Below, in pieces: positions 1 through 5,437 of a DNA stretch of 5,437 nt. Below the pieces are notes generated by a model. The model had not been told where the DNA came from and did no database searches. It saw only the letters and a program-made list of their open reading frames with translations. The stretch is from positions 1 through 5,437 of the IMG/VR virus record IMGVR_UViG_3300039367_000062, one strand, 5' to 3'. This DNA is from a virus (lineage: Duplodnaviria; Heunggongvirae; Uroviricota; Caudoviricetes). The position numbers and the translations under genes are program-made. Each line of letters starts with the position of its first letter. Position 1 is the first letter of the stretch.

Positions 1-314
1 TATTTCTCACGGATTACGGCGTCTATTTTTTCTTCCATCCGTTTATAGTCAGGAAGAAGGCGTTTCAGTGGAGCGGGAATATCCTGGCAATACGCTTCTG
101 TTGCATCATGCATTAACGCTTCAAAAGCAAATTCCTGCGGCACCAGCTGGCTGCAAAGCACCGCATGCTGGGCGACACTGTAGAAGTGTGAAAGATGTCC
201 TGCAAAGCGACAGATATTTGAAAGGGAAACCGCGATATCGTTAATCACGATGTCGTCTTTATTTATCTTGTCATAATAAAAATGCTTCCCGGAAAAAGTT
301 TTAATAAATGACAT
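1..314 (-). CDS. yfdR: HD-domain phosphohydrolase (YfdR-like), 5' part only; gene continues beyond window start
   Basis: Manual minus-strand translation from ATG at 314..312: MSFIKTFSGKHFYYDKINKDDIVINDIAVSLSNICRFAGHLSHFYSVAQHAVLCSQLVPQEFAFEALMHDATEAYCQDIPAPLKRLLPDYKRMEEKIDAVIREK, open to the window edge. It shows the H...HD metal-binding signature (GHLSH, LMHDATE). A GGAGA Shine-Dalgarno lies 5 nt upstream of the ATG. Not in the supplied ORF track because it is truncated. The symbol is from memory of the CPS-53 prophage HD protein and is less certain than the family call. Confidence 0.75.
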   Translation of the reverse strand, partial: MSFIKTFSGKHFYYDKINKDDIVINDIAVSLSNICRFAGHLSHFYSVAQHAVLCSQLVPQEFAFEALMHDATEAYCQDIPAPLKRLLPDYKRMEEKIDAVIREK

Positions 315-355
315 TTCGTTCTCCACTTTATATGCGCTGCACCGCTCTGAATTTT

Positions 356-400
356 GATTGCAGCAATCCAGCCCATTTGACATGGGATGATTGCTGCAAT
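356..400. repeat. Extended intergenic palindrome (nested hairpin) followed by a T6 tract
   Basis: GATTGCAGCAATC (356..368) pairs with GATTGCTGCAAT (389..400); inner CCCAT (372..376) pairs with ATGGG (382..386); loop TTGAC. TTTTTT at 401..406 follows on the plus strand and overlaps the rdgC-like stop codon. Confidence 0.4.
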
Positions 401-404
401 TTTT

Positions 405-1322
405 TTAAGTTGTTGGATTTTGGCTTTTATCTTCTTTGTAAGAAAGAAGGTCACACATCAAATTAACTACCTTGCTGAATTGGAAAAGGTCAGCGCCAGT
501 CTGATGACGCCACTGGAATGCTTTATCATCTTCATCATTAAATGTCTGAGATTGAGTATTGATGCGCGAAAAATGGAAATTTTCGGTAAGAATGAAGGTC
601 ACACCGCAACCGGATAACTCCATTTTATCAGCAGTGAAACTACTACTAAGGCTATCGGCCAGTTCGCTTTGAATTGACTCATGCTCAGCTGAGTAGCGAA
701 TAATTTCCTTTTGATCTGCGTAGCGCGATAGCTGAATATAATTTCCGACAGTGAATCCTTCAAATGCATTGGCTGCACCATTGATGTAGTTATTCAGGCG
801 TGTAGTCAGTCCATTCTTGATATCACTGATGTTGATTGTTTCTGTTTTCACTGAACCGACAACCTTAATCAGCATTGCGCATACCATACCGGCTATTATT
901 TTATTGGTTGTGTTGATTACCAATAATTTCTCATCAGTGCTGTACAATGCAAGAATCAGAGTAGACTTAACAAATGCCTGTTTGCATAGATCTACTCGTA
1001 CGTTATCAATAATGGCCAGTCGTTCGGCACGCTTTAATTTATTCCCGGACATATTTTCGGTTGTTTGGATTCGAGAATTAGCTTCTTTCATGACGACATG
1101 TCGGGGAATTATTTTCTGATCATGACGGATTACCATTGCGTACCCACCAGATATCGGAGTTACCAGTTCACCAGTGACAGGATTCTCTACAAAAGAGGAC
1201 CGTGAAAATTCTGTTTCCCCGATTTCAGAATAAGGGAGTTCGAGAAGATGACCTTCAATAGCCTGTATACTAGGTAATGTTGCTCGGTACACAATTGCGT
1301 TACGAAATTTTGGTAATTTCAT
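405..1322 (-). CDS. RdgC-family recombination-associated protein (phage type), about 305 aa
   Basis: Internal ATG at 1322..1320 of the 405..1694 ORF, preceded by GAGGA with 8-nt spacing. N-terminus MKLPKFRNAIVYRA matches the RdgC N-terminal pattern (F-x-N-x-x-VYR), and overall length is RdgC-like. The 124-codon in-frame extension upstream is the translation of the GC-rich noncoding island, not protein. Confidence 0.8.
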   Translation of the reverse strand: MKLPKFRNAIVYRATLPSIQAIEGHLLELPYSEIGETEFSRSSFVENPVTGELVTPISGGYAMVIRHDQKIIPRHVVMKEANSRIQTTENMSGNKLKRAERLAIIDNVRVDLCKQAFVKSTLILALYSTDEKLLVINTTNKIIAGMVCAMLIKVVGSVKTETINISDIKNGLTTRLNNYINGAANAFEGFTVGNYIQLSRYADQKEIIRYSAEHESIQSELADSLSSSFTADKMELSGCGVTFILTENFHFSRINTQSQTFNDEDDKAFQWRHQTGADLFQFSKVVNLMCDLLSYKEDKSQNPTT

Positions 1323-1357
1323 TCTATTTTCCTCTGCACAATGTATTAGTTTCTCCA

Positions 1358-1700
1358 CAAAACAGAGAAGAACACCTGCGGTGGCAGCCGCCCGGATGGA
1401 TTGGGTTATGAGCCCGTCGTCCGGTGATGCTCTTCTCTGTTTTGCAAAAAAGGACGGTACCAGCCGGAAGCAAGGGTACAAACTGGTACCGCCAGGACTA
1501 CACACAGCATAAAGTTGTGGTGCCGGGTGCCTCCCGGTGCCTGGCGAAGGTTGCACACCAGGCGGGTGGGTATCCACAGAAGGTCGACTGTCAGCCTCAA
1601 CCTTAACCCGCGTGCGCTGAGCCGCATTCACCACAACGCTAAGGATTCTCTCTGGTTGAAAATACTTAGCTGTTATGTGCCTGCTTTTAGCCACATCAGG
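1358..1700. other. GC-rich, ORF-poor structured island (candidate ncRNA or cis-acting RNA element)
   Basis: About 62% GC in sampled 60-nt blocks, visibly higher than the flanking genes. All six frames are open but give non-protein-like, P/G/R-rich translations. Perfect 13-bp inverted repeat CAAAACAGAGAAG (1358..1370) / CTTCTCTGTTTTG (1432..1444); 9-bp inverted repeat CGGTACCAG (1455..1463) / CTGGTACCG (1483..1491); GGTGCC three times in 1519..1541 with a CCGGG/CCCGG hairpin. Confidence 0.3.
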
Positions 1701-1739
1701 CGAGGTGGACCTGGTTATTCCCCAACAACAAGGATTCGG

Positions 1740-1762
1740 TTAATCTGGATATCCCCAACAAC
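1740..1762. repeat. Left arm of an imperfect inverted repeat flanking the 1779..2294 gene; also overlaps a 13-bp direct repeat
   Basis: TTAATCTGGATATCCCCAACAAC is the reverse complement, with a 2-bp indel, of the 2303..2326 arm; core ATCTGGATATCC is identical. TCCCCAACAACAA occurs twice in direct orientation (1719..1731 and 1752..1764). Confidence 0.5.
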
Positions 1763-1778
1763 AATAAGAGTATTCAAT

Positions 1779-2294
1779 GTGATCGCTGAATTAACGGCAG
1801 CAATGACGGCTATTCGTGAAACAGCCCAGATTGCAAAACTAATGAACGAGGCAAAAACTCAAGCTGAAGTAAATGCGGCTATTGGTGAGCTGAACTCAAA
1901 GCTTGCGTCTATTCAGCGCGAATGCGTGTCTCTCGTTGAACTGGTGGGCTCTTATCAAGAAATAAATGCTTCTCTCAAAGCTAAAATTGCAGAATTCGAA
2001 AACTTTGAGGCTCAGACGGAAGGCTATATCCTTAACCAACTTGAGTCGGGTACTTTTGTATACTCGAAGGAGGTAATCGTGAACGGTGGCAGCATAACCA
2101 TGCATCTTTGCCCAAAATGTTTTGGACAAAAGATAGTATCGATACTTCAACCATTCCCGGTTAGCAAAGATGAGCTTTTTCATAAAAGCAGGTGCCTCCA
2201 CTGTGAAAATAAGTTTCTGATGAATAAAAATCCGGATTACGTATCGCCTCCATCCATTGAGGAGTTGTCCAGAAAACTTAACGGCAATCTGTAG
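1779..2294 (+). CDS. Hypothetical coiled-coil plus C-terminal zinc-ribbon protein (about 171 aa); moron-like gene antisense to the early-left operon
   Basis: ORF 1515..2294; the upstream 88 codons are GC-rich and non-protein-like. Likely start is GTG 1779 (AAGAG 8 nt upstream) or ATG 1803 (no Shine-Dalgarno). N-terminal half is heptad-like (AKLMNEAKTQAEVNAAIGELNSKLASIQ...); C-terminal half has CPKC...(about 29 aa)...CLHC, a CxxC...CxxC ribbon. Codon usage is coding-like and AT-rich. Own terminator immediately downstream. Confidence 0.6.
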   Translation: MIAELTAAMTAIRETAQIAKLMNEAKTQAEVNAAIGELNSKLASIQRECVSLVELVGSYQEINASLKAKIAEFENFEAQTEGYILNQLESGTFVYSKEVIVNGGSITMHLCPKCFGQKIVSILQPFPVSKDELFHKSRCLHCENKFLMNKNPDYVSPPSIEELSRKLNGNL

Positions 2295-2302
2295 ATTGCT
2301 AC

Positions 2303-2326
2303 TGTTGTGGATATCCAGATTGTTAA
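2303..2326. repeat. Right arm of the imperfect inverted repeat flanking the 1779..2294 gene
   Basis: TGTTGTGGATATCCAGATTGTTAA; its reverse complement TTAACAATCTGGATATCCACAACA matches the left arm at 1740..1762. The GGATATCC core is itself palindromic. Confidence 0.5.
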
Positions 2327-2331
2327 AGAGC
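2319..2331 (-). promoter_or_regulatory. boxA-like antitermination motif on the leftward transcript (nutL-like)
   Basis: The minus strand reads GCTCTTTAACAAT, matching the rrn-type boxA consensus TGCTCTTTAACAA. It lies about 100 nt downstream of the pL-like promoter and directly after the 2333..2356 hairpin as read on the minus strand. Confidence 0.35.
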
Positions 2332-2332
2332 T

Positions 2333-2356
2333 AAGCGTCCTGTAGGGCGCTTTTTT
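2333..2356 (+). terminator. Rho-independent terminator for the 1779..2294 gene
   Basis: AAGCGTCC (2333..2340), loop TGTA, GGGCGCTT (2345..2352) gives an 8-bp stem with one G-U pair, followed by a T6 run at 2351..2356, 39 nt after the stop codon. Confidence 0.6.
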
Positions 2357-2436
2357 GTTGCTAATGAATCATCCTAGACTTCATATGCTCCAGGCGGCTA
2401 CTTCGTGGGCGTCCTGCCTGTTTGTTGTTTCTCTTG

Positions 2437-2450
2437 GGTACATTATGTAT
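2437..2450. promoter_or_regulatory. Operator-like site (OL candidate) overlapping the pL -10
   Basis: GGTACATTATGTAT matches 12 of 14 positions with GGTACATATTGTAT at 3262..3275 on the other side of the repressor gene, and contains the TACA/TGTA dyad. Confidence 0.35.
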
Positions 2451-2469
2451 CCCAAAGGCACATTGTCAA
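2442..2469 (-). promoter_or_regulatory. pL-like sigma-70 promoter driving leftward early transcription
   Basis: On the minus strand: -35 TTGACA (plus 2464..2469), 16-bp spacer, -10 CATAAT (plus 2442..2447). It sits immediately beyond the repressor-gene terminator and is overlapped by the operator-like site. Confidence 0.45.
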
Positions 2470-2471
2470 GT

Positions 2472-2496
2472 ATAAAAAAACCTGCCGAAGCAGGTT
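2472..2496 (-). terminator. Rho-independent terminator of the repressor gene
   Basis: Minus-strand RNA AACCUGC-UUCG-GCAGGUU (7-bp stem, UUCG tetraloop) followed by UUUUUUAUA, 13 nt after the repressor stop. Confidence 0.65.
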
Positions 2497-2508
2497 CATA
2501 AACATTGA

Positions 2509-3183
2509 TTAGGCTTTGATTTTGTATCTTCTTGGTTTTCCTGAGAAAATCACAGTTCCAATTATAGAGCAATTACCGTTGATCTTAATGTAAGGCTCAG
2601 GCCAGTTTGGGTTTAACGCTTTGAGATAACGCTGTGTCCCATCTTCTATCAACCTTTTGAAGGTGGTTTCACCTGTATCGTGCATCAATGCAATAACGTC
2701 GTCACCGTGGCAGGCAGGTACTTCAGGATCGACAAAAATCATGTCTCCCGGGCGGTACTCATCAATCATTGAATCACCTATCACCCGCAAGATATAAGTC
2801 ATTTCCCCACAGGGTACAGGGCAGGGATACGTTTCTGCTGTGCTCAAATCAACCTCAGAATATCCAACTTCTTTCCATGCTCCGGCCTGTACCCATGATA
2901 TGACAGGGACTAATGTGATTTGTTTATTAGTGATTGAAACATCAGGTTTTTTTGTGATGTTCGTTGTCTGGTGTTCTTGATCGAGCCATCCGACAGGCAG
3001 GTCGAAACATTTTTCGATGTGTCGTGCCATGCTGTCACCGATATTTTTAGTAGCACCATCTCCCATAAACCTGCTGGTCTGGGTTGGCTCGCGATCAATC
3101 ATAGTGGCAAAGGAAGAATTCCCGCCAACACCATCTCTCAGTTTTCTGGCGTTAGACCGCCGGATGTCATGGATTGTTTTCAT
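2509..3183 (-). CDS. CI-type prophage repressor: N-terminal HTH, C-terminal S24 (LexA-like) autopeptidase domain
   Basis: 224-aa ORF. C-terminal domain carries the Ser/Lys dyad signature (VIGDSM ... TTFKRL) typical of LexA, lambda CI and UmuD. N-terminal region is HTH-like (QTSRFMG...ARHIEKCFDLPVGWLD). It is divergent from the Cro-like gene, with operators between. Confidence 0.9.
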   Translation of the reverse strand: MKTIHDIRRSNARKLRDGVGGNSSFATMIDREPTQTSRFMGDGATKNIGDSMARHIEKCFDLPVGWLDQEHQTTNITKKPDVSITNKQITLVPVISWVQAGAWKEVGYSEVDLSTAETYPCPVPCGEMTYILRVIGDSMIDEYRPGDMIFVDPEVPACHGDDVIALMHDTGETTFKRLIEDGTQRYLKALNPNWPEPYIKINGNCSIIGTVIFSGKPRRYKIKA

Positions 3184-3505: not shown

Positions 3506-4075
3506 ATGAGGCTAATCGTGGGTAAGCATCACTGGAAAATAGAAAAACAGCCTGAGTGGTACGTGAAAGCTGTCAGAAAAACTATCGCGGCGTTGCCGGG
3601 TGGTTACGCTGAAGCGGCTGACTGGCTCGATGTAACAGAAAACGCTTTATTCAACCGCCTTCGTGCAGATGGCGATCAGATTTTCCCGCTGGGATGGGCA
3701 ATGGTTTTACAGCGTGCTGGTGGCACTCATTTCATTGCTGATGCTGTGGCGCAGTCTGCAAATGGCGTCTTTGTGTCTCTTCCTGACGTCGAGGATGTGG
3801 ACAACGCCGATATTAACCAGCGTCTGCTGGAAGTCATTGAACAGATCGGCAGTTATTCAAAACAGATTCGTTCAGCAATCGAAGACGGTGTAGTGGAACC
3901 GCATGAGAAGACAGCAATTAACGACGAGCTGTATCTCTCAATTTCGAAGCTGCAGGAGCATGCAGCACTTGTCTACAAAATTTTTTGCATTTCAGAAAGT
4001 AATGACGCCCGCGAGTGTGCAGCTCCGGGCGTCGTGGCGTCGATTGCTTCTGGTTGTGGAGAAACTAACGCATGA
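3506..4075 (+). CDS. CII-like / YdaT-like early regulatory protein (putative), 189 aa
   Basis: Second gene of the rightward operon, occupying the cII position. Alternative GTG start at 3518 has a GAGG 6 nt upstream. The functional assignment is positional and from weak family resemblance only. Confidence 0.65.
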
Positions 4076-4410
4076 ACAGTTTAACAACACACTACCGTCG
4101 CTCGCAACTGATTGCGCTTCCTGTACCGGGTGGAAAAGCGAAGGTGGAATATTGCTATGCAGTGAATGTACCAGGTGACAGGGAAATTGTAACCCACAGC
4201 TTTGCAGAGTGGGCTGTGGGGGATTTCAACCGGCAGAAGGAGACAGTCCTTTGCGACAAGTTAACCGCTGGTTCAAAGATCACTACGGAGTGCCCGTCAG
4301 AGTCATTCGTTGGGAACCGGAAACACAACGGGTTATCTACCTCCGCGAAGGCTATGAGCATGAGTGCTTCAGTCCGCTCGAACAGTTTCGTCGTAAATTC
4401 AGGGAAATAG
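4072..4410 (+). CDS. Hypothetical small protein; only the 5' part (4072 to about 4250) looks coding in this frame
   Basis: Its ATG overlaps the preceding stop (ATGA at 4072..4075), suggesting translational coupling. Codon usage is coding-like up to about 4250; after that the frame gives a Ser-rich low-complexity tail with rarer codons. Confidence 0.3.
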
Positions 4411-4430
4411 AGGTCGGTCATGAGCACTAA
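4251..4430 (+). CDS. Hypothetical small protein (about 59 aa) upstream of and overlapping the replication gene start
   Basis: TTG at 4251 with AAGGAGA 7 nt upstream (GTG 4209 is an alternative start). The translation ...[56 protein letters not shown] is protein-like with preferred codons. It overlaps the next gene by 11 nt. Confidence 0.45.
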
Positions 4431-5361
4431 ATTAACCGGCTATGTATGGGATGGTTGCGCAGCGTCAGGCATGAAATTATCCAGCGTGGCAATTATGGCC
4501 CGCCTGGCTGATTTCAGTAATGACGAAGGTGTGTGCTGGCCATCGATTGAAACCATTGCCCGCCAGATTGGCGCGGGGATGAGTACAGTCAGAACGGCTA
4601 TCGCACGGCTGGAAGCAGAAGGCTGGTTAACGCGTAAGGCGCGTCGCCAGGGTAACCGCAATGCGTCGAATGTTTATCAGCTTAACGTTGCGAAGCTTCA
4701 GGCTGCGGCATTTTCTCAACTGTCAGATTCTGACCCGTCAAAATCTGACGCATCAAAATCTGACCCGTCAAAATTTGATGCGTCGAAATCTGGCAAAAAA
4801 GCGGGTTTTCACCCGTCAGAATCTGGCGGGGATCCGTCAGTAAAATCAAAACATGATCCGTCAGATAAAAAACCTTCTCGTCCGGACGCTTCGCAACCGG
4901 ACACGCAGACGGCTGAACAGGATTTTTTAACTCGCCATCCTGATGCGGTTGTATTCAGCCCTAAAAAGCGCCAGTGGGGGACGCAGGATGATTTGACCTG
5001 CGCACAGTGGCTCTGGAAAAAAATCATCGCCCTGTACGAGCAGGCTGCCGAATGTGACGGCGAGGTGGTTCGTCCCAAAGAACCGAACTGGACAGCCTGG
5101 GCAAACGAAATTCGCCTGATGTGTGTGCAGGATGGTCGTACTCACAAACAAATCTGCGAGATGTACAGCCGCGTCAGCCGCGATCCGTTCTGGTGCCGTA
5201 ACGTGCTCAGCCCGTCGAAGCTGCGGGAAAAATGGGATGAGCTTTCCCTGCGCTTATCGCCGTCCGTAAGCACGTACACCGAAAAACGCGAAGACCCGTA
5301 CTTCAAAGCCAGTTACGACAACGTGGACTACAGCCAGATCCCGGCAGGATTCAGGGGGTAA
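4420..5361 (+). CDS. Replication initiator (lambda O-like): N-terminal HTH DNA-binding domain, repeat linker containing the origin iterons, C-terminal domain
   Basis: 313-aa ORF with GAGG 6 nt upstream. The N-terminal [13 protein letters not shown]...MSTVRTAIARLEAEGWLTRKARRQGNRNASNVYQLNV is an HTH of the type found in phage replication initiators. An internal 15-bp tandem repeat array encodes SK[SF]D[PA] repeats. It sits in the O position after the cro/cII-like genes. Confidence 0.85.
   Translation: MSTKLTGYVWDGCAASGMKLSSVAIMARLADFSNDEGVCWPSIETIARQIGAGMSTVRTAIARLEAEGWLTRKARRQGNRNASNVYQLNVAKLQAAAFSQLSDSDPSKSDASKSDPSKFDASKSGKKAGFHPSESGGDPSVKSKHDPSDKKPSRPDASQPDTQTAEQDFLTRHPDAVVFSPKKRQWGTQDDLTCAQWLWKKIIALYEQAAECDGEVVRPKEPNWTAWANEIRLMCVQDGRTHKQICEMYSRVSRDPFWCRNVLSPSKLREKWDELSLRLSPSVSTYTEKREDPYFKASYDNVDYSQIPAGFRG
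4722..4796. repeat. Iteron array (candidate phage replication origin) inside the initiator gene
   Basis: Five tandem 15-bp units: GTCAGATTCTGACCC, GTCAAAATCTGACGC, ATCAAAATCTGACCC, GTCAAAATTTGATGC, GTCGAAATCTGGCAA. Each has a GTCA...TGAC internal dyad. Degenerate copies (CCGTCAGAATCTGG, CCGTCAGTAAAATC, CCGTCAGATAAAAAA) continue to about 4875, followed by A/T-rich stretches. Confidence 0.7.
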
Positions 5362-5363
5362 TC

Positions 5364-5437
5364 ATGAGTCTTTTGAATGAAGTTCAGAAATTCATTGAAG
5401 CCCATCCGGGGTGTACTTCCGGAGACATTGCGGATGC
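5364..5437 (+). CDS. Start of the next gene (hypothetical; position suggests the second replication-module gene), truncated by the window end
   Basis: ATG at 5364 with AGGGGG 5 nt upstream, 2 nt after the initiator stop; translation MSLLNEVQKFIEAHPGCTSGDIAD... runs off the window. Confidence 0.5.
   Translation, partial: MSLLNEVQKFIEAHPGCTSGDIAD

What the first reader, a model, noticed from the sequence alone, without database searches (positions are those of the whole stretch)
4722..4875. Replication origin embedded in the initiator gene: five 15-bp iterons encoding a repeat linker
The tandem 15-bp units (consensus GTCAAAATCTGACNC, each with a GTCA/TGAC dyad) lie inside the O-like coding sequence and translate to SK[SF]D[PA] repeats. 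This matches the lambda arrangement, where ori iterons sit within gene O between its two domains. The unit length and sequence differ from lambda's 19-bp iterons, suggesting a distinct initiator/origin specificity group.
Basis: partly seen in the sequence, partly recalled or inferred. Interest (0 to 1): 0.45.

Follow-up and report, generated by a model that had tools for sequence, protein, structure and literature searches.

The report
Replication origin inside phage initiator gene
The short DNA repeats inside this prophage's replication-initiator gene are real and are conserved as DNA rather than as protein, so they are very probably the phage's replication origin, a compact variant of the phage lambda arrangement in a common phage type whose replication has not been studied.

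Summary
Five head-to-tail 15-bp units (13-bp dyad GTCA[A/G]A[A/T]TCTGAC) lie at 4722-4794. A sixth copy lies at 4815-4827 and two partial copies at 4836-4872. All are inside the 313-aa initiator gene (4420-5361) and encode an S-K-S-D-x linker.

In 70 homologs from Escherichia to Proteus/Providencia, synonymous sites diverge in the N-terminal winged-helix domain but are almost frozen across 4720-4875. AAG for Lys never occurs in the units. The array (3-9 units) always travels with the N-domain, whichever C-terminal domain follows. A paralog with a changed recognition helix carries different 15-bp units. Position, adjacent A/T-rich stretch and C-terminal domain (BLASTP E 3e-26 to the 434/lambda O protein) match lambda's origin-in-O layout.

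It differs from lambda in four ways: the N-domain is HTH_36, not Phage_rep_O; spacing is 15 bp, not 20-24; there is an almost invariant core with two GATC sites 24 bp apart; and no helicase-loader gene follows. A 2025 paper calls such "O-only" modules not yet understood.

No binding or replication experiment exists, and I found no published description of this origin. Verdict: a real, ordinary-in-kind but undescribed origin variant, present in 1944 of 5426 complete E. coli genomes. Interest is moderate.

The parts
4420..5361 (+). Replication initiator gene (313 aa, 'O-like'). It contains the whole element.
   Evidence: ORF. PHROG 391 'replication initiation O-like', E 8e-136 over the full length. 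99-100% identical to the annotated replication proteins of SfIV, SfII, Kati and PhiR49_1.
4420..4716 (+). N-terminal winged-helix DNA-binding domain (aa 1-99), the presumed iteron reader.
   Evidence: Pfam HTH_36, E 4e-11, aa 23-70. Weaker GntR, MarR, DnaD_N and RepC-N hits. Not Phage_rep_O. Synonymous sites diverge freely here.
4722..4794 (.). Five head-to-tail 15-bp iterons, each a 13-bp dyad plus a 2-bp spacer: 4722-4734, 4737-4749, 4752-4764, 4767-4779, 4782-4794.
   Evidence: Family position matrix over 350 units: T2, C3 and A6 invariant, core TCA[A/G]A[A/T]TCTG. Codon fixation.
4795..4814 (.). Spacer: A6 tract, then GCGGG, then TTTTCAC (4806-4812). In the family consensus the last part is TTTTGAC, an inverted left half-iteron.
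   Evidence: Inverted repeats I1/I2 (4724-4743 against 4806-4825, 85% complementary). TTT and CCG codons are 89-100% fixed.
4815..4827 (.). Sixth iteron, GTCAGAATCTGGC, the most conserved copy in the family.
   Evidence: Per-base conservation 0.9-1.0 in 71 homologs. GAA 100% and TCT 97% fixed.
4828..4876 (.). Almost invariant core plus A/T-rich stretch: GATC (4831-4834), GTCAGTAAAATCA (4836-4848), GATC (4855-4858), GTCAGATAAAAAA (4860-4872). This is the candidate unwinding region.
   Evidence: 4837-4876 is 70% A+T against 47% for the gene, the A/T-richest 40 bp inside the coding sequence apart from its 3' end. GAT, TCA and GTA codons are 100% fixed. The direct repeat GATCCGTCAG(T/A) occurs twice (D7). 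The block is also shared by the O157 paralog, which has different iterons.
4915..5250 (+). C-terminal domain homologous to the lambda O C-terminal domain (aa 166-277), which in lambda is the replisome-recruiting part.
   Evidence: tblastn gives 39% identity over aa 166-277 to the O proteins of 434, lambda and Stx phages. BLASTP E 3e-26 against 434 O. PHROG 277 and 2514 hits.
4209..4430 (+). Upstream DUF4222 gene that overlaps the initiator start codon and recurs in front of this initiator type.
   Evidence: Pfam DUF4222, E 3e-19. The same pairing occurs in EKP1 and in E. coli 52148.

Best explanation
This is the cis-acting replication origin of a lambdoid prophage (SfIV/SfII/PhiR49_1 type), embedded in the linker-coding part of its own initiator gene.

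Shown:
- A stretch of about 160 bp (4720-4880) is under selection as DNA.
- It consists of five tandem dyad-symmetric 13-bp sites at 15-bp phasing, one separate sixth site, an almost invariant core with two GATC sites, and an A/T-rich stretch.
- It is always inherited together with the N-terminal HTH_36 winged-helix domain.
- It sits exactly where lambda O carries ori-lambda, in front of a lambda-O-like C-terminal domain.

Inferred:
- Dimers of the N-terminal domain bind the dyad sites and build a nucleoprotein complex like lambda's O-some.
- This complex destabilises the adjacent A/T-rich stretch (about 4837-4876).
- The C-terminal domain then brings in the host helicase.

Because each unit is exactly five codons, gain or loss of units keeps the reading frame. 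The protein only has to tolerate a flexible S-K-S-D-x linker of variable length.

Unknown: how the DnaB helicase is loaded without a phage-encoded loader, and whether the two GATC sites make initiation sensitive to methylation.
For: Repeat reality and enrichment.

DNA-level constraint. Synonymous heterozygosity is 0.571 over 67 N-domain columns and 0.101 over 14 linker-block columns, p = 7.6e-8. Per-codon major-codon fractions are 0.3-0.7 in the N-domain and 0.9-1.0 from 4720 to 4870. In the units, Lys is AAA 217 times and AAG never, against 580:359 in the background (p = 2e-40). The non-synonymous AAT/AAC occur in about 23% of units. Ser1 is TCA 289/353 against 213/1380 in the background.

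Co-inheritance with the N-domain. 70 homologs carry lambda-O-like, Phg_2220_C or other C-domains. Recombination junctions lie at 4862-4898, just right of the element.

Co-variation. The O157 paralog is 67% identical in the N-domain. Its recognition helix reads STVKSAIAEL where this protein has STVRTAIARL, and its 15-bp units are TCAAnnnTTGAC. In contrast, equally or more divergent homologs that keep STVRTA also keep TCA[A/G]A[A/T]TCTG.

Generality. Four more distant HTH_36 initiators, and mEp460_4F5 with its unrelated N-domain (no Pfam match), each have their own dyad repeats right after the N-domain.

Positional match and C-domain homology to lambda/434 O. A/T-rich stretch directly downstream. 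Copy number varies from 3 to 9 with the sequence kept, and one E. coli allele has three extra perfect units.
Against: There is no experimental evidence of binding or of origin activity, and I found no published description.

The A/T-rich stretch is modest: 70% over 40 bp, against 80% in 434/lambda.

The 15-bp spacing puts neighbouring 13-bp sites about 1.4 helical turns apart, unlike the 21-24 bp spacing of every compared relative. The geometry of a lambda-like wrapped complex therefore does not obviously carry over.

No helicase loader is encoded nearby, so the step after binding is unexplained.

The co-variation argument rests on two specificity groups only.

Codon identity among units within one array is partly inherited through unit duplication. 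The cross-genus comparison and the non-repeated core do not have this weakness.
Confidence: 0.77

Rival explanations
1. The sites are initiator-binding sites, but they serve autoregulation or copy control (titration or handcuffing, like incA of P1 or plasmid control iterons), while the true start site of replication lies elsewhere in the phage.
For: Iteron arrays can serve control as well as initiation (established knowledge of iteron plasmids). The A/T-rich stretch is only moderately A/T-rich. Nothing here measures where synthesis starts.
Against: The motif is found almost only at this one locus in the 45-kb phage genome, so no second array exists that could be the origin. The position is equivalent to ori-lambda in a protein with a homologous C-domain. 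An almost invariant core with an A/T-rich stretch flanks the array.
Confidence: 0.1
2. The repeats are only a low-complexity, slippage-generated protein linker with no function as DNA.
For: The peptide S-K-S-D-x is a typical flexible linker. Copy number varies. RefSeq even labels one truncated copy a 'pentapeptide repeat-containing protein'.
Against: Synonymous sites are frozen while amino acids are allowed to change: AAG is never seen although AAT/AAC are, and the spacer codon varies freely. The non-repeated core 4807-4875 is conserved base by base across genera, while the adjacent N-domain has saturated synonymous sites.
Confidence: 0.03
3. The conserved DNA serves something other than initiator binding. 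Candidates are a structured RNA or single-stranded hairpin, a binding site for another phage or host protein, a preferred recombination junction between initiator modules, or an overlapping reading frame on the opposite strand.
For: The region folds far better than shuffles (RNA MFE -53.2 kcal/mol, z = -5.66). Module junctions fall at its right edge, 4862-4898. One minus-strand frame stays open across the element in 50 of 70 homologs. The right-hand core is shared between two iteron specificity groups, so at least that part may be read by a common, possibly host, factor.
Against: The good fold follows automatically from tandem palindromes, and copy number ranges from 3 to 9, which a defined RNA fold would not tolerate. 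Rfam has no credible match: the only hit there is a chance microRNA hit at 30.7 bits against a gathering score of 97. The minus-strand frame is broken in 20 of 70 homologs, and all three codon positions are constrained. The unit sequence changes together with the N-domain recognition helix. No DnaA box with 1 mismatch or fewer lies in or near the gene.
Confidence: 0.08

Closest known systems
ori-lambda within gene O of phage lambda/434 (and the equivalent origins of other lambdoid phages such as phi80)
   Same: The origin lies inside the initiator gene, between an N-terminal DNA-binding domain and a C-terminal recruiting domain. It has tandem repeats with internal dyad symmetry and an A-rich centre, followed on the right by an A/T-rich stretch. 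The repeats are translated into a linker. The C-terminal domain is homologous (39% identity over aa 166-277; BLASTP E 3e-26).
   Different: The N-domain is Pfam HTH_36, not Phage_rep_O, and a profile comparison finds no similarity. Units are 13-bp dyads at a strict 15-bp in-frame period, against 17-19-bp sites at 20-24 bp. The A/T-rich stretch is weaker (70% against 80%). There is an extra invariant core with two GATC sites. No P-type loader gene follows.
Other HTH_36 'O-like' phage initiators (Stx2a_F403/Min27-type O, Klebsiella RothC, Vibrio D67, Aggregatibacter S1249)
   Same: They have the same N-domain family and the same place for the repeats, directly after the N-domain, with a dyad inside each repeat.
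   Different: Their repeats are 21-24 bp apart and have unrelated sequences. Two of them (RothC and S1249) are followed by a P-like loader gene.
E. coli O157-type prophage initiator in the YdaT / HTH / DnaC-like module (L088)
   Same: It is the closest paralog, 67% identical in the N-domain. It has the same 15-bp in-frame period, the same right-hand GATCCGTCAG...GATCCGTCAGATAAAAG core and the same lambda-O-like C-domain.
   Different: The units read TCAAnnnTTGAC and encode D-P-S-x-V/I. The recognition helix differs (K and S in place of R and T). An IstB/DnaC-like ATPase gene follows.
Iteron-type plasmid origins (P1 oriR/RepA, F RepE, R6K pi, pSC101 RepA)
   Same: A winged-helix initiator binds direct repeats next to an A/T-rich region. 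In P1 oriR, GATC sites lie in the opening region; this point is from general knowledge and was not tested here.
   Different: Plasmid iterons are 17-22 bp at about two-turn spacing, lie outside the rep gene, and are accompanied by DnaA boxes. Here no DnaA box with 1 mismatch or fewer lies within 4056-5437.

Membership tests
Lambda-type origin embedded in the initiator gene (ori-lambda / gene O module) | Tandem repeats with internal dyad symmetry inside the initiator ORF, between the N- and C-terminal domains | tested here: met
   Positional comparison with 434/lambda O.
Lambda-type origin embedded in the initiator gene (ori-lambda / gene O module) | A/T-rich stretch immediately to the right of the repeats | tested here: met
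   4837-4876 is 70% A+T against 47% for the gene. The 434/lambda stretch is 80%. The feature is present but weaker.
Lambda-type origin embedded in the initiator gene (ori-lambda / gene O module) | C-terminal domain homologous to the lambda O C-terminal domain | tested here: met
   39% identity over aa 166-277. BLASTP E 3e-26.
Lambda-type origin embedded in the initiator gene (ori-lambda / gene O module) | N-terminal domain of the Phage_rep_O family (PF04492) | tested here: not met
   The window protein hits HTH_36 only. 434 O hits Phage_rep_O at E 6e-36. hhalign probability is 0.1%.
Lambda-type origin embedded in the initiator gene (ori-lambda / gene O module) | Iterons of about 18-19 bp spaced about two helical turns (20-24 bp) | tested here: not met
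   The period here is 15 bp. 434/lambda spacing is 20, 24 and 23 bp.
Lambda-type origin embedded in the initiator gene (ori-lambda / gene O module) | Cognate helicase-loader gene (P or an analogue) directly downstream | tested here: not met
   The next genes are PerC/YfdN, a LexA-like gene, KilA-N and DUF968 in SfIV, and YfdN, Dam, a LexA-like gene and RusA in PhiR49_1. Among 65 related loci there was only 1 lambda-P hit and 1 IstB hit.
Lambda-type origin embedded in the initiator gene (ori-lambda / gene O module) | Initiator binds the repeats, and the fragment supports initiator-dependent replication | not testable with these tools
   This needs EMSA or footprinting and a mini-replicon assay.
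HTH_36 'replication initiation O-like' phage initiators (PHROG 391) | HTH_36 winged-helix N-domain and a full-length match to the family profile | tested here: met
   Pfam HTH_36, E 4e-11. phrog_391, E 8e-136, aa 1-313.
HTH_36 'replication initiation O-like' phage initiators (PHROG 391) | Lineage-specific dyad repeats directly after the N-domain coding part | tested here: met
   Present here, in four distant HTH_36 initiators and in the HTH_36 paralog L088. mEp460_4F5, whose N-domain has no Pfam match, also has its own repeats at that place.
Iteron plasmid origins | Iterons in an intergenic origin together with DnaA boxes | tested here: not met
   The array is intragenic. No DnaA box with 1 mismatch or fewer lies between 4056 and 5437.

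The most novel reading that the evidence does not exclude
The compact array of 15-bp in-frame iterons, together with the almost invariant GATC-bearing core, is the complete origin of a loader-independent ('O-only') mode of lambdoid replication. In this mode the initiator recruits the host helicase machinery directly. The two GATC sites, 24 bp apart, couple initiation to adenine methylation by the phage methyltransferase that lies within two genes downstream in 38 of 65 related loci. The methylation could license the origin or let it escape SeqA sequestration.
Probability: 0.2. Interest if true: 0.65.

Novelty: new variant of a known kind. Interest (0 to 1): 0.42.

Why it matters
Origins inside initiator genes are textbook for lambda, so the principle is not new. 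This particular initiator/origin pair, however, is carried by 1944 of 5426 complete E. coli genomes, by the Shigella serotype-converting phages SfII and SfIV, and by prophages across the Enterobacterales.

It belongs to the 'O-only' replication modules. A 2025 survey found these in 34 of 314 lambdoid phages and described them as never studied and not understood (PMC12315714).

Pinning the cis element down to about 160 bp, with a defined binding motif, a candidate opening region and two conserved methylation sites, makes that question directly testable. A mini-replicon, footprinting and host-mutant dependence experiments would do it. The result also explains why this linker is conserved and why annotation pipelines mislabel it, for example as a 'pentapeptide repeat' protein.

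The element is also a clean example of a protein-coding segment whose sequence is dictated by a DNA function. That matters for codon-based evolutionary analyses and for recoding or synthetic-phage work.

Tried and rejected
Literature. The SfIV genome paper does not mention an origin. The iteron sequence returns only unrelated human primer hits. Searches on SfV/iterons, replication protein O/prophage and PF13730/iteron found no description of this origin. The SfV paper was not held in the library. The Stx 'Eru' replication-region paper and the Serratia phage paper gave nothing on iterons. The oriJ/Rac search gave two papers that I did not open.

Solved structures by sequence gave only weak MarR-type hits.

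A profile comparison of the N-domain with the lambda O N-domain found no similarity.

The viral-contig scan with an N-domain alignment returned 80 loci, all 100% identical to the O157 paralog. It therefore added little copy-number and point variation and no new specificity groups.

Rfam gave only a chance microRNA hit on the palindromes.

The promoter scan found nothing in 4300-5437. A minus-strand terminator-like hairpin at 4802-4815 is not conserved in the family consensus.

The overlapping-ORF idea was rejected because the only mostly open alternative frame is interrupted in 20 of 70 homologs.

A right-hand palindrome like lambda's is present in most relatives (GTCCGGTTGC/GCAACCCGAC in L017) but is degenerate in this window.

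I did not run structure prediction or the very large protein searches, because the verdict does not depend on them.
Full report
**Context.** The window is the immunity and replication region of a lambdoid prophage. Its genes are:
- an S24 repressor at 2509-3183 on the minus strand;
- a CII/CP76-type regulator at 3506-4075;
- a DUF4222 gene at 4209-4430;
- a 313-aa ORF at 4420-5361.

The segment 4420-5437 is 98.5-99.9% identical to Escherichia phage PhiR49_1 and to Shigella phages SfIV and SfII, where the ORF is annotated as replication protein O or primosomal protein. The protein is 100% identical to the Escherichia phage Kati protein. It matches PHROG 391, 'replication initiation O-like', over its whole length (E 8e-136). 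Its N-terminus is a Pfam HTH_36 winged-helix domain (E 4e-11, aa 23-70). Residues 166-277 are 39% identical to the C-terminal domain of the O proteins of lambda, 434 and the Stx phages (BLASTP E 3e-26 against 434 O).

**The observation.**
- Tandem Repeats Finder reports a period-15 array at 4729-4792 (4.3 copies, 81% matches).
- The repeat finder places copies every 15 bp from 4722 to 4796, plus one more 33 bp further on.
- Read from the sequence, the 13-bp dyads lie at 4722-4734 (GTCAGATTCTGAC, a perfect palindrome), 4737-4749, 4752-4764, 4767-4779 and 4782-4794. A sixth (GTCAGAATCTGGC) is at 4815-4827. Partial copies are at 4836-4848 and 4860-4872.
- The motif TCARAWTCTGAC with at most 1 mismatch occurs 8 times in the window, all in this spot. 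Shuffles give 0.12 expected, and none of 200 reaches 8.
- In the 45-kb PhiR49_1 genome, 8 of the 10 hits are here.
- The units are in frame and encode S-[DK]-[SF]-[DG]-x.

**Is it DNA or protein that is conserved?** A scan of one genome per species returned 79 loci that encode a relative of the N-domain. Seventy non-identical homologs, from Escherichia, Citrobacter, Kosakonia and Yersinia to Providencia and Proteus (72-91% identity in the N-domain), were compared codon by codon.
- In the N-domain, conserved amino acids use 2-6 codons, with major-codon fractions mostly 0.3-0.7.
- From window position 4720 to about 4875 the major codon is used in 0.9-1.0 of sequences, often with only one codon.
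- Mean synonymous heterozygosity is 0.571 over 67 N-domain columns and 0.101 over 14 columns of the non-repeated block (Mann-Whitney p = 7.6e-8).
- Within 353 units, the first Ser is TCA in 82% (background 15%), the second Ser is TCT in 75% of Ser codons (background 9%), and Lys is AAA 217 times and AAG never (background 580:359).
- The non-synonymous AAT/AAC (Asn) are tolerated at the Lys position in about 23% of units, but the synonymous AAG is not. This is the signature of a constraint on the bases, not on the peptide.
- The least conserved bases are the spacer and the outer end of each unit. The core is TCA[A/G]A[A/T]TCTG.
- Downstream of the array lies a block that is nearly invariant base by base across all genera: TTT[G/C]ACCCGTCAGAATCTGGCGGGGATCCGTCAGTAAA[A/T]TCAA...GATCC[A/G]TCAGATAAAAAACC.

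**Who reads it?**
- The array always accompanies the N-domain. Homologs with a lambda-O-like C-domain (this window, a Klebsiella phage, the Providencia/Proteus group), with a Phg_2220_C C-domain (Citrobacter phiNP, Yersinia YeP3 and, on a crude sequence-pattern classification, most of the genome loci) or with yet another C-terminus (EKP1) all keep 3-9 units.
- mEp460_4F5 shares the C-domain at 97% nucleotide identity from window position 4862 onwards. It has an unrelated N-domain and different repeats (GGTCAAARTGRC at 23-24 bp).
- A paralog common in E. coli O157-type prophages is 67% identical in the N-domain. Its presumed recognition helix reads STVKSAIAEL where this protein has STVRTAIARL. 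It carries 15-bp in-frame units of a different sequence (TCAAnnnTTGAC, encoding D-P-S-x-V), while the right-hand core and the C-domain are kept.
- Homologs that are as divergent or more so (57-72% identity; for example EKP1 and the Ewingella locus L062) but keep the S-T-[V/I]-R-T-A helix keep the TCA[A/G]A[A/T]TCTG core.
- Four more distant HTH_36 initiators (Stx2a_F403, Klebsiella RothC, Vibrio D67, Aggregatibacter S1249) each have their own dyad repeats at the same place.

Together this is the classical pattern of an initiator with its cognate iterons. The co-variation rests on few groups, and binding itself is inferred.

**Comparison of the layout with lambda.**
- In 434/lambda O, the four iterons encode aa 117-145.
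- The 80% A+T stretch there encodes aa 145-160 and is followed by a 28-bp palindrome.
- Homology with the protein in this window starts near aa 171.
- Here the units encode aa 101-125 and 133-136.
- The A/T-richest 40 bp inside the gene, apart from its 3' end, is 4837-4876 (70% against 47% for the gene) and encodes aa 140-153.
- The homologous C-domain starts near aa 166.

**Differences from lambda.**
- The N-domain belongs to a different Pfam family, and a profile comparison finds no similarity.
- The spacing is 15 bp (about 1.4 turns), against 20-24 bp in lambda and 21-24 bp in all other relatives examined.
- An extra conserved core carries two GATC sites.
- No helicase loader is encoded. 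The following genes are PerC/YfdN, a LexA-like gene, KilA-N and DUF968 in SfIV, and YfdN, Dam, a LexA-like gene and RusA in PhiR49_1.
- Among 65 related loci, the two ORFs downstream gave only one lambda-P hit and one IstB hit.

A 2025 survey states that 34 of 314 lambdoid phages encode only an O homolog, that none has been studied, and that their replication 'is not yet understood' (PMC12315714).

**Mechanism proposed.** The shown steps are the domain architecture, the DNA-level constraint, the site structure and the co-inheritance. The inferred steps are:
- N-domain dimers occupy the dyads;
- the complex strains the adjacent A/T-rich stretch, which opens;
- the lambda-O-like C-domain recruits the host helicase machinery directly.

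The five-codon unit length lets the array expand or contract without breaking the frame. One E. coli allele has three additional perfect units. The 15-bp phasing implies neighbouring sites on nearly opposite faces of the helix, so the complex may differ in shape from lambda's wrapped O-some. Alternatively, the junction palindrome TGAC-NN-GTCA could be the unit that is read. This cannot be decided here.

**Rivals.**
- A pure protein linker is contradicted by the frozen synonymous sites.
- An overlapping minus-strand ORF is unlikely, because that frame is broken in 20 of 70 homologs and all three codon positions are constrained.
- A structured RNA is not supported. The strong fold (z = -5.66) follows from tandem palindromes, copy number varies, and Rfam has no real match.
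- A control array rather than the origin itself cannot be excluded, but there is no second array in the phage genome.

**Novelty and literature.** I found no description of this origin. The general idea that HTH_36 'O-like' genes may contain iterons is in the literature (PMC5509034). I therefore class it as a new variant of a known kind. The principle is that of lambda. What differs is the DNA-binding fold, the compact in-frame spacing, the GATC-bearing core and the absence of a loader gene.

**Prevalence.** 1944 of 5426 complete E. coli genomes carry at least 80% of the 4640-4960 segment. E. coli K-12 (CPS-53) retains the element in an N-terminally truncated pseudogene.

Noticed in passing
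window 5365-5437; L001 6939-10126; L087 8035-9891: The replication module is 'O-only'. The gene after the initiator is a PerC/YfdN-type regulator, and no P, DnaC or DnaB gene follows in SfIV or PhiR49_1. Among 65 related loci, only 1 lambda-P hit and 1 IstB hit were found in the next two ORFs. PMC12315714 says this module type is unstudied.
   Followed up: partly
window 4831-4834 and 4855-4858; downstream genes in L002-L078: Two GATC sites 24 bp apart are conserved in the core: 69 of 72 homologs have at least 2 GATC in the linker, and the first two are 24 bp apart in 58 of 72. GATC density is 10.8 per kb in the linker against 2.2 per kb in the rest of the gene. An adenine methyltransferase gene lies within two genes downstream in 38 of 65 loci. 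This may indicate methylation control of the origin. It was not tested.
   Followed up: partly
L088 1039-2001 (E. coli O157:H7 Z563 prophage); L095-L174: A paralogous initiator (67% identical N-domain) carries different 15-bp in-frame units (TCAAnnnTTGAC) but has the same right-hand GATC core and the same C-domain. It is flanked by a YdaT-family gene upstream and an IstB/DnaC-like ATPase gene downstream. 873 E. coli records match only the right part of the element at 80-90% identity; the one such record examined (L088) is of this type.
   Followed up: partly
L090 1502-2209 (K-12-lineage strain, CPS-53 prophage): The K-12 cryptic prophage CPS-53 keeps the iterons and the core inside a pseudogene that lacks the N-terminal DNA-binding domain. 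It is an orphan origin without its reader.
   Followed up: no
L089 581-1567; H117: An E. coli allele has eight tandem units instead of five, with three extra perfect GCATCAAAATCTGAC copies. RefSeq annotates one truncated copy of this gene as a 'pentapeptide repeat-containing protein'.
   Followed up: partly
window about 4862-4898: Module junctions fall just right of the element. Homology with mEp460_4F5 starts at 4862, and homology with Citrobacter phiNP ends at 4898. The C-terminal domains in the family are of at least three kinds: lambda-O-like, Phg_2220_C and other.
   Followed up: partly
L086 1467-1494 (434/lambda ori): The 28-bp palindrome to the right of lambda's A/T-rich region, GTCAGAGAATTC/GAATCCTCTGAC, has the same outer arms (GTCAGA...TCTGAC) as the iterons here. 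This may be coincidence.
   Followed up: no
window 4072-4430: Two overlapping ORFs are annotated differently in different records: 4072-4410 ('YmfM', no Pfam match) and 4209-4430 (DUF4222, E 3e-19). DUF4222 recurs directly upstream of this initiator type and overlaps its start codon.
   Followed up: no
window 1444-1667 (-): A sub-threshold Rfam match to the sRNA family STnc100 (40.3 bits against a gathering score of 47, E 2e-6) lies in a stretch crowded with short overlapping ORFs.
   Followed up: no
window 405-1694 (-): An RdgC-like ORF (Pfam RdgC, E 8e-30) lies in the early-left region. Only about 60% of window 1-2500 aligns to PhiR49_1, so the left arm is mosaic.
   Followed up: no
L017 2961-2983 and most group members; window 4876-4898: Most relatives have a 10-3-10 palindrome (GTCCGGTTGC / GCAACCCGAC) directly right of the A-rich stretch, reminiscent of lambda's right-hand palindrome. 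It is degenerate in this window.
   Followed up: partly
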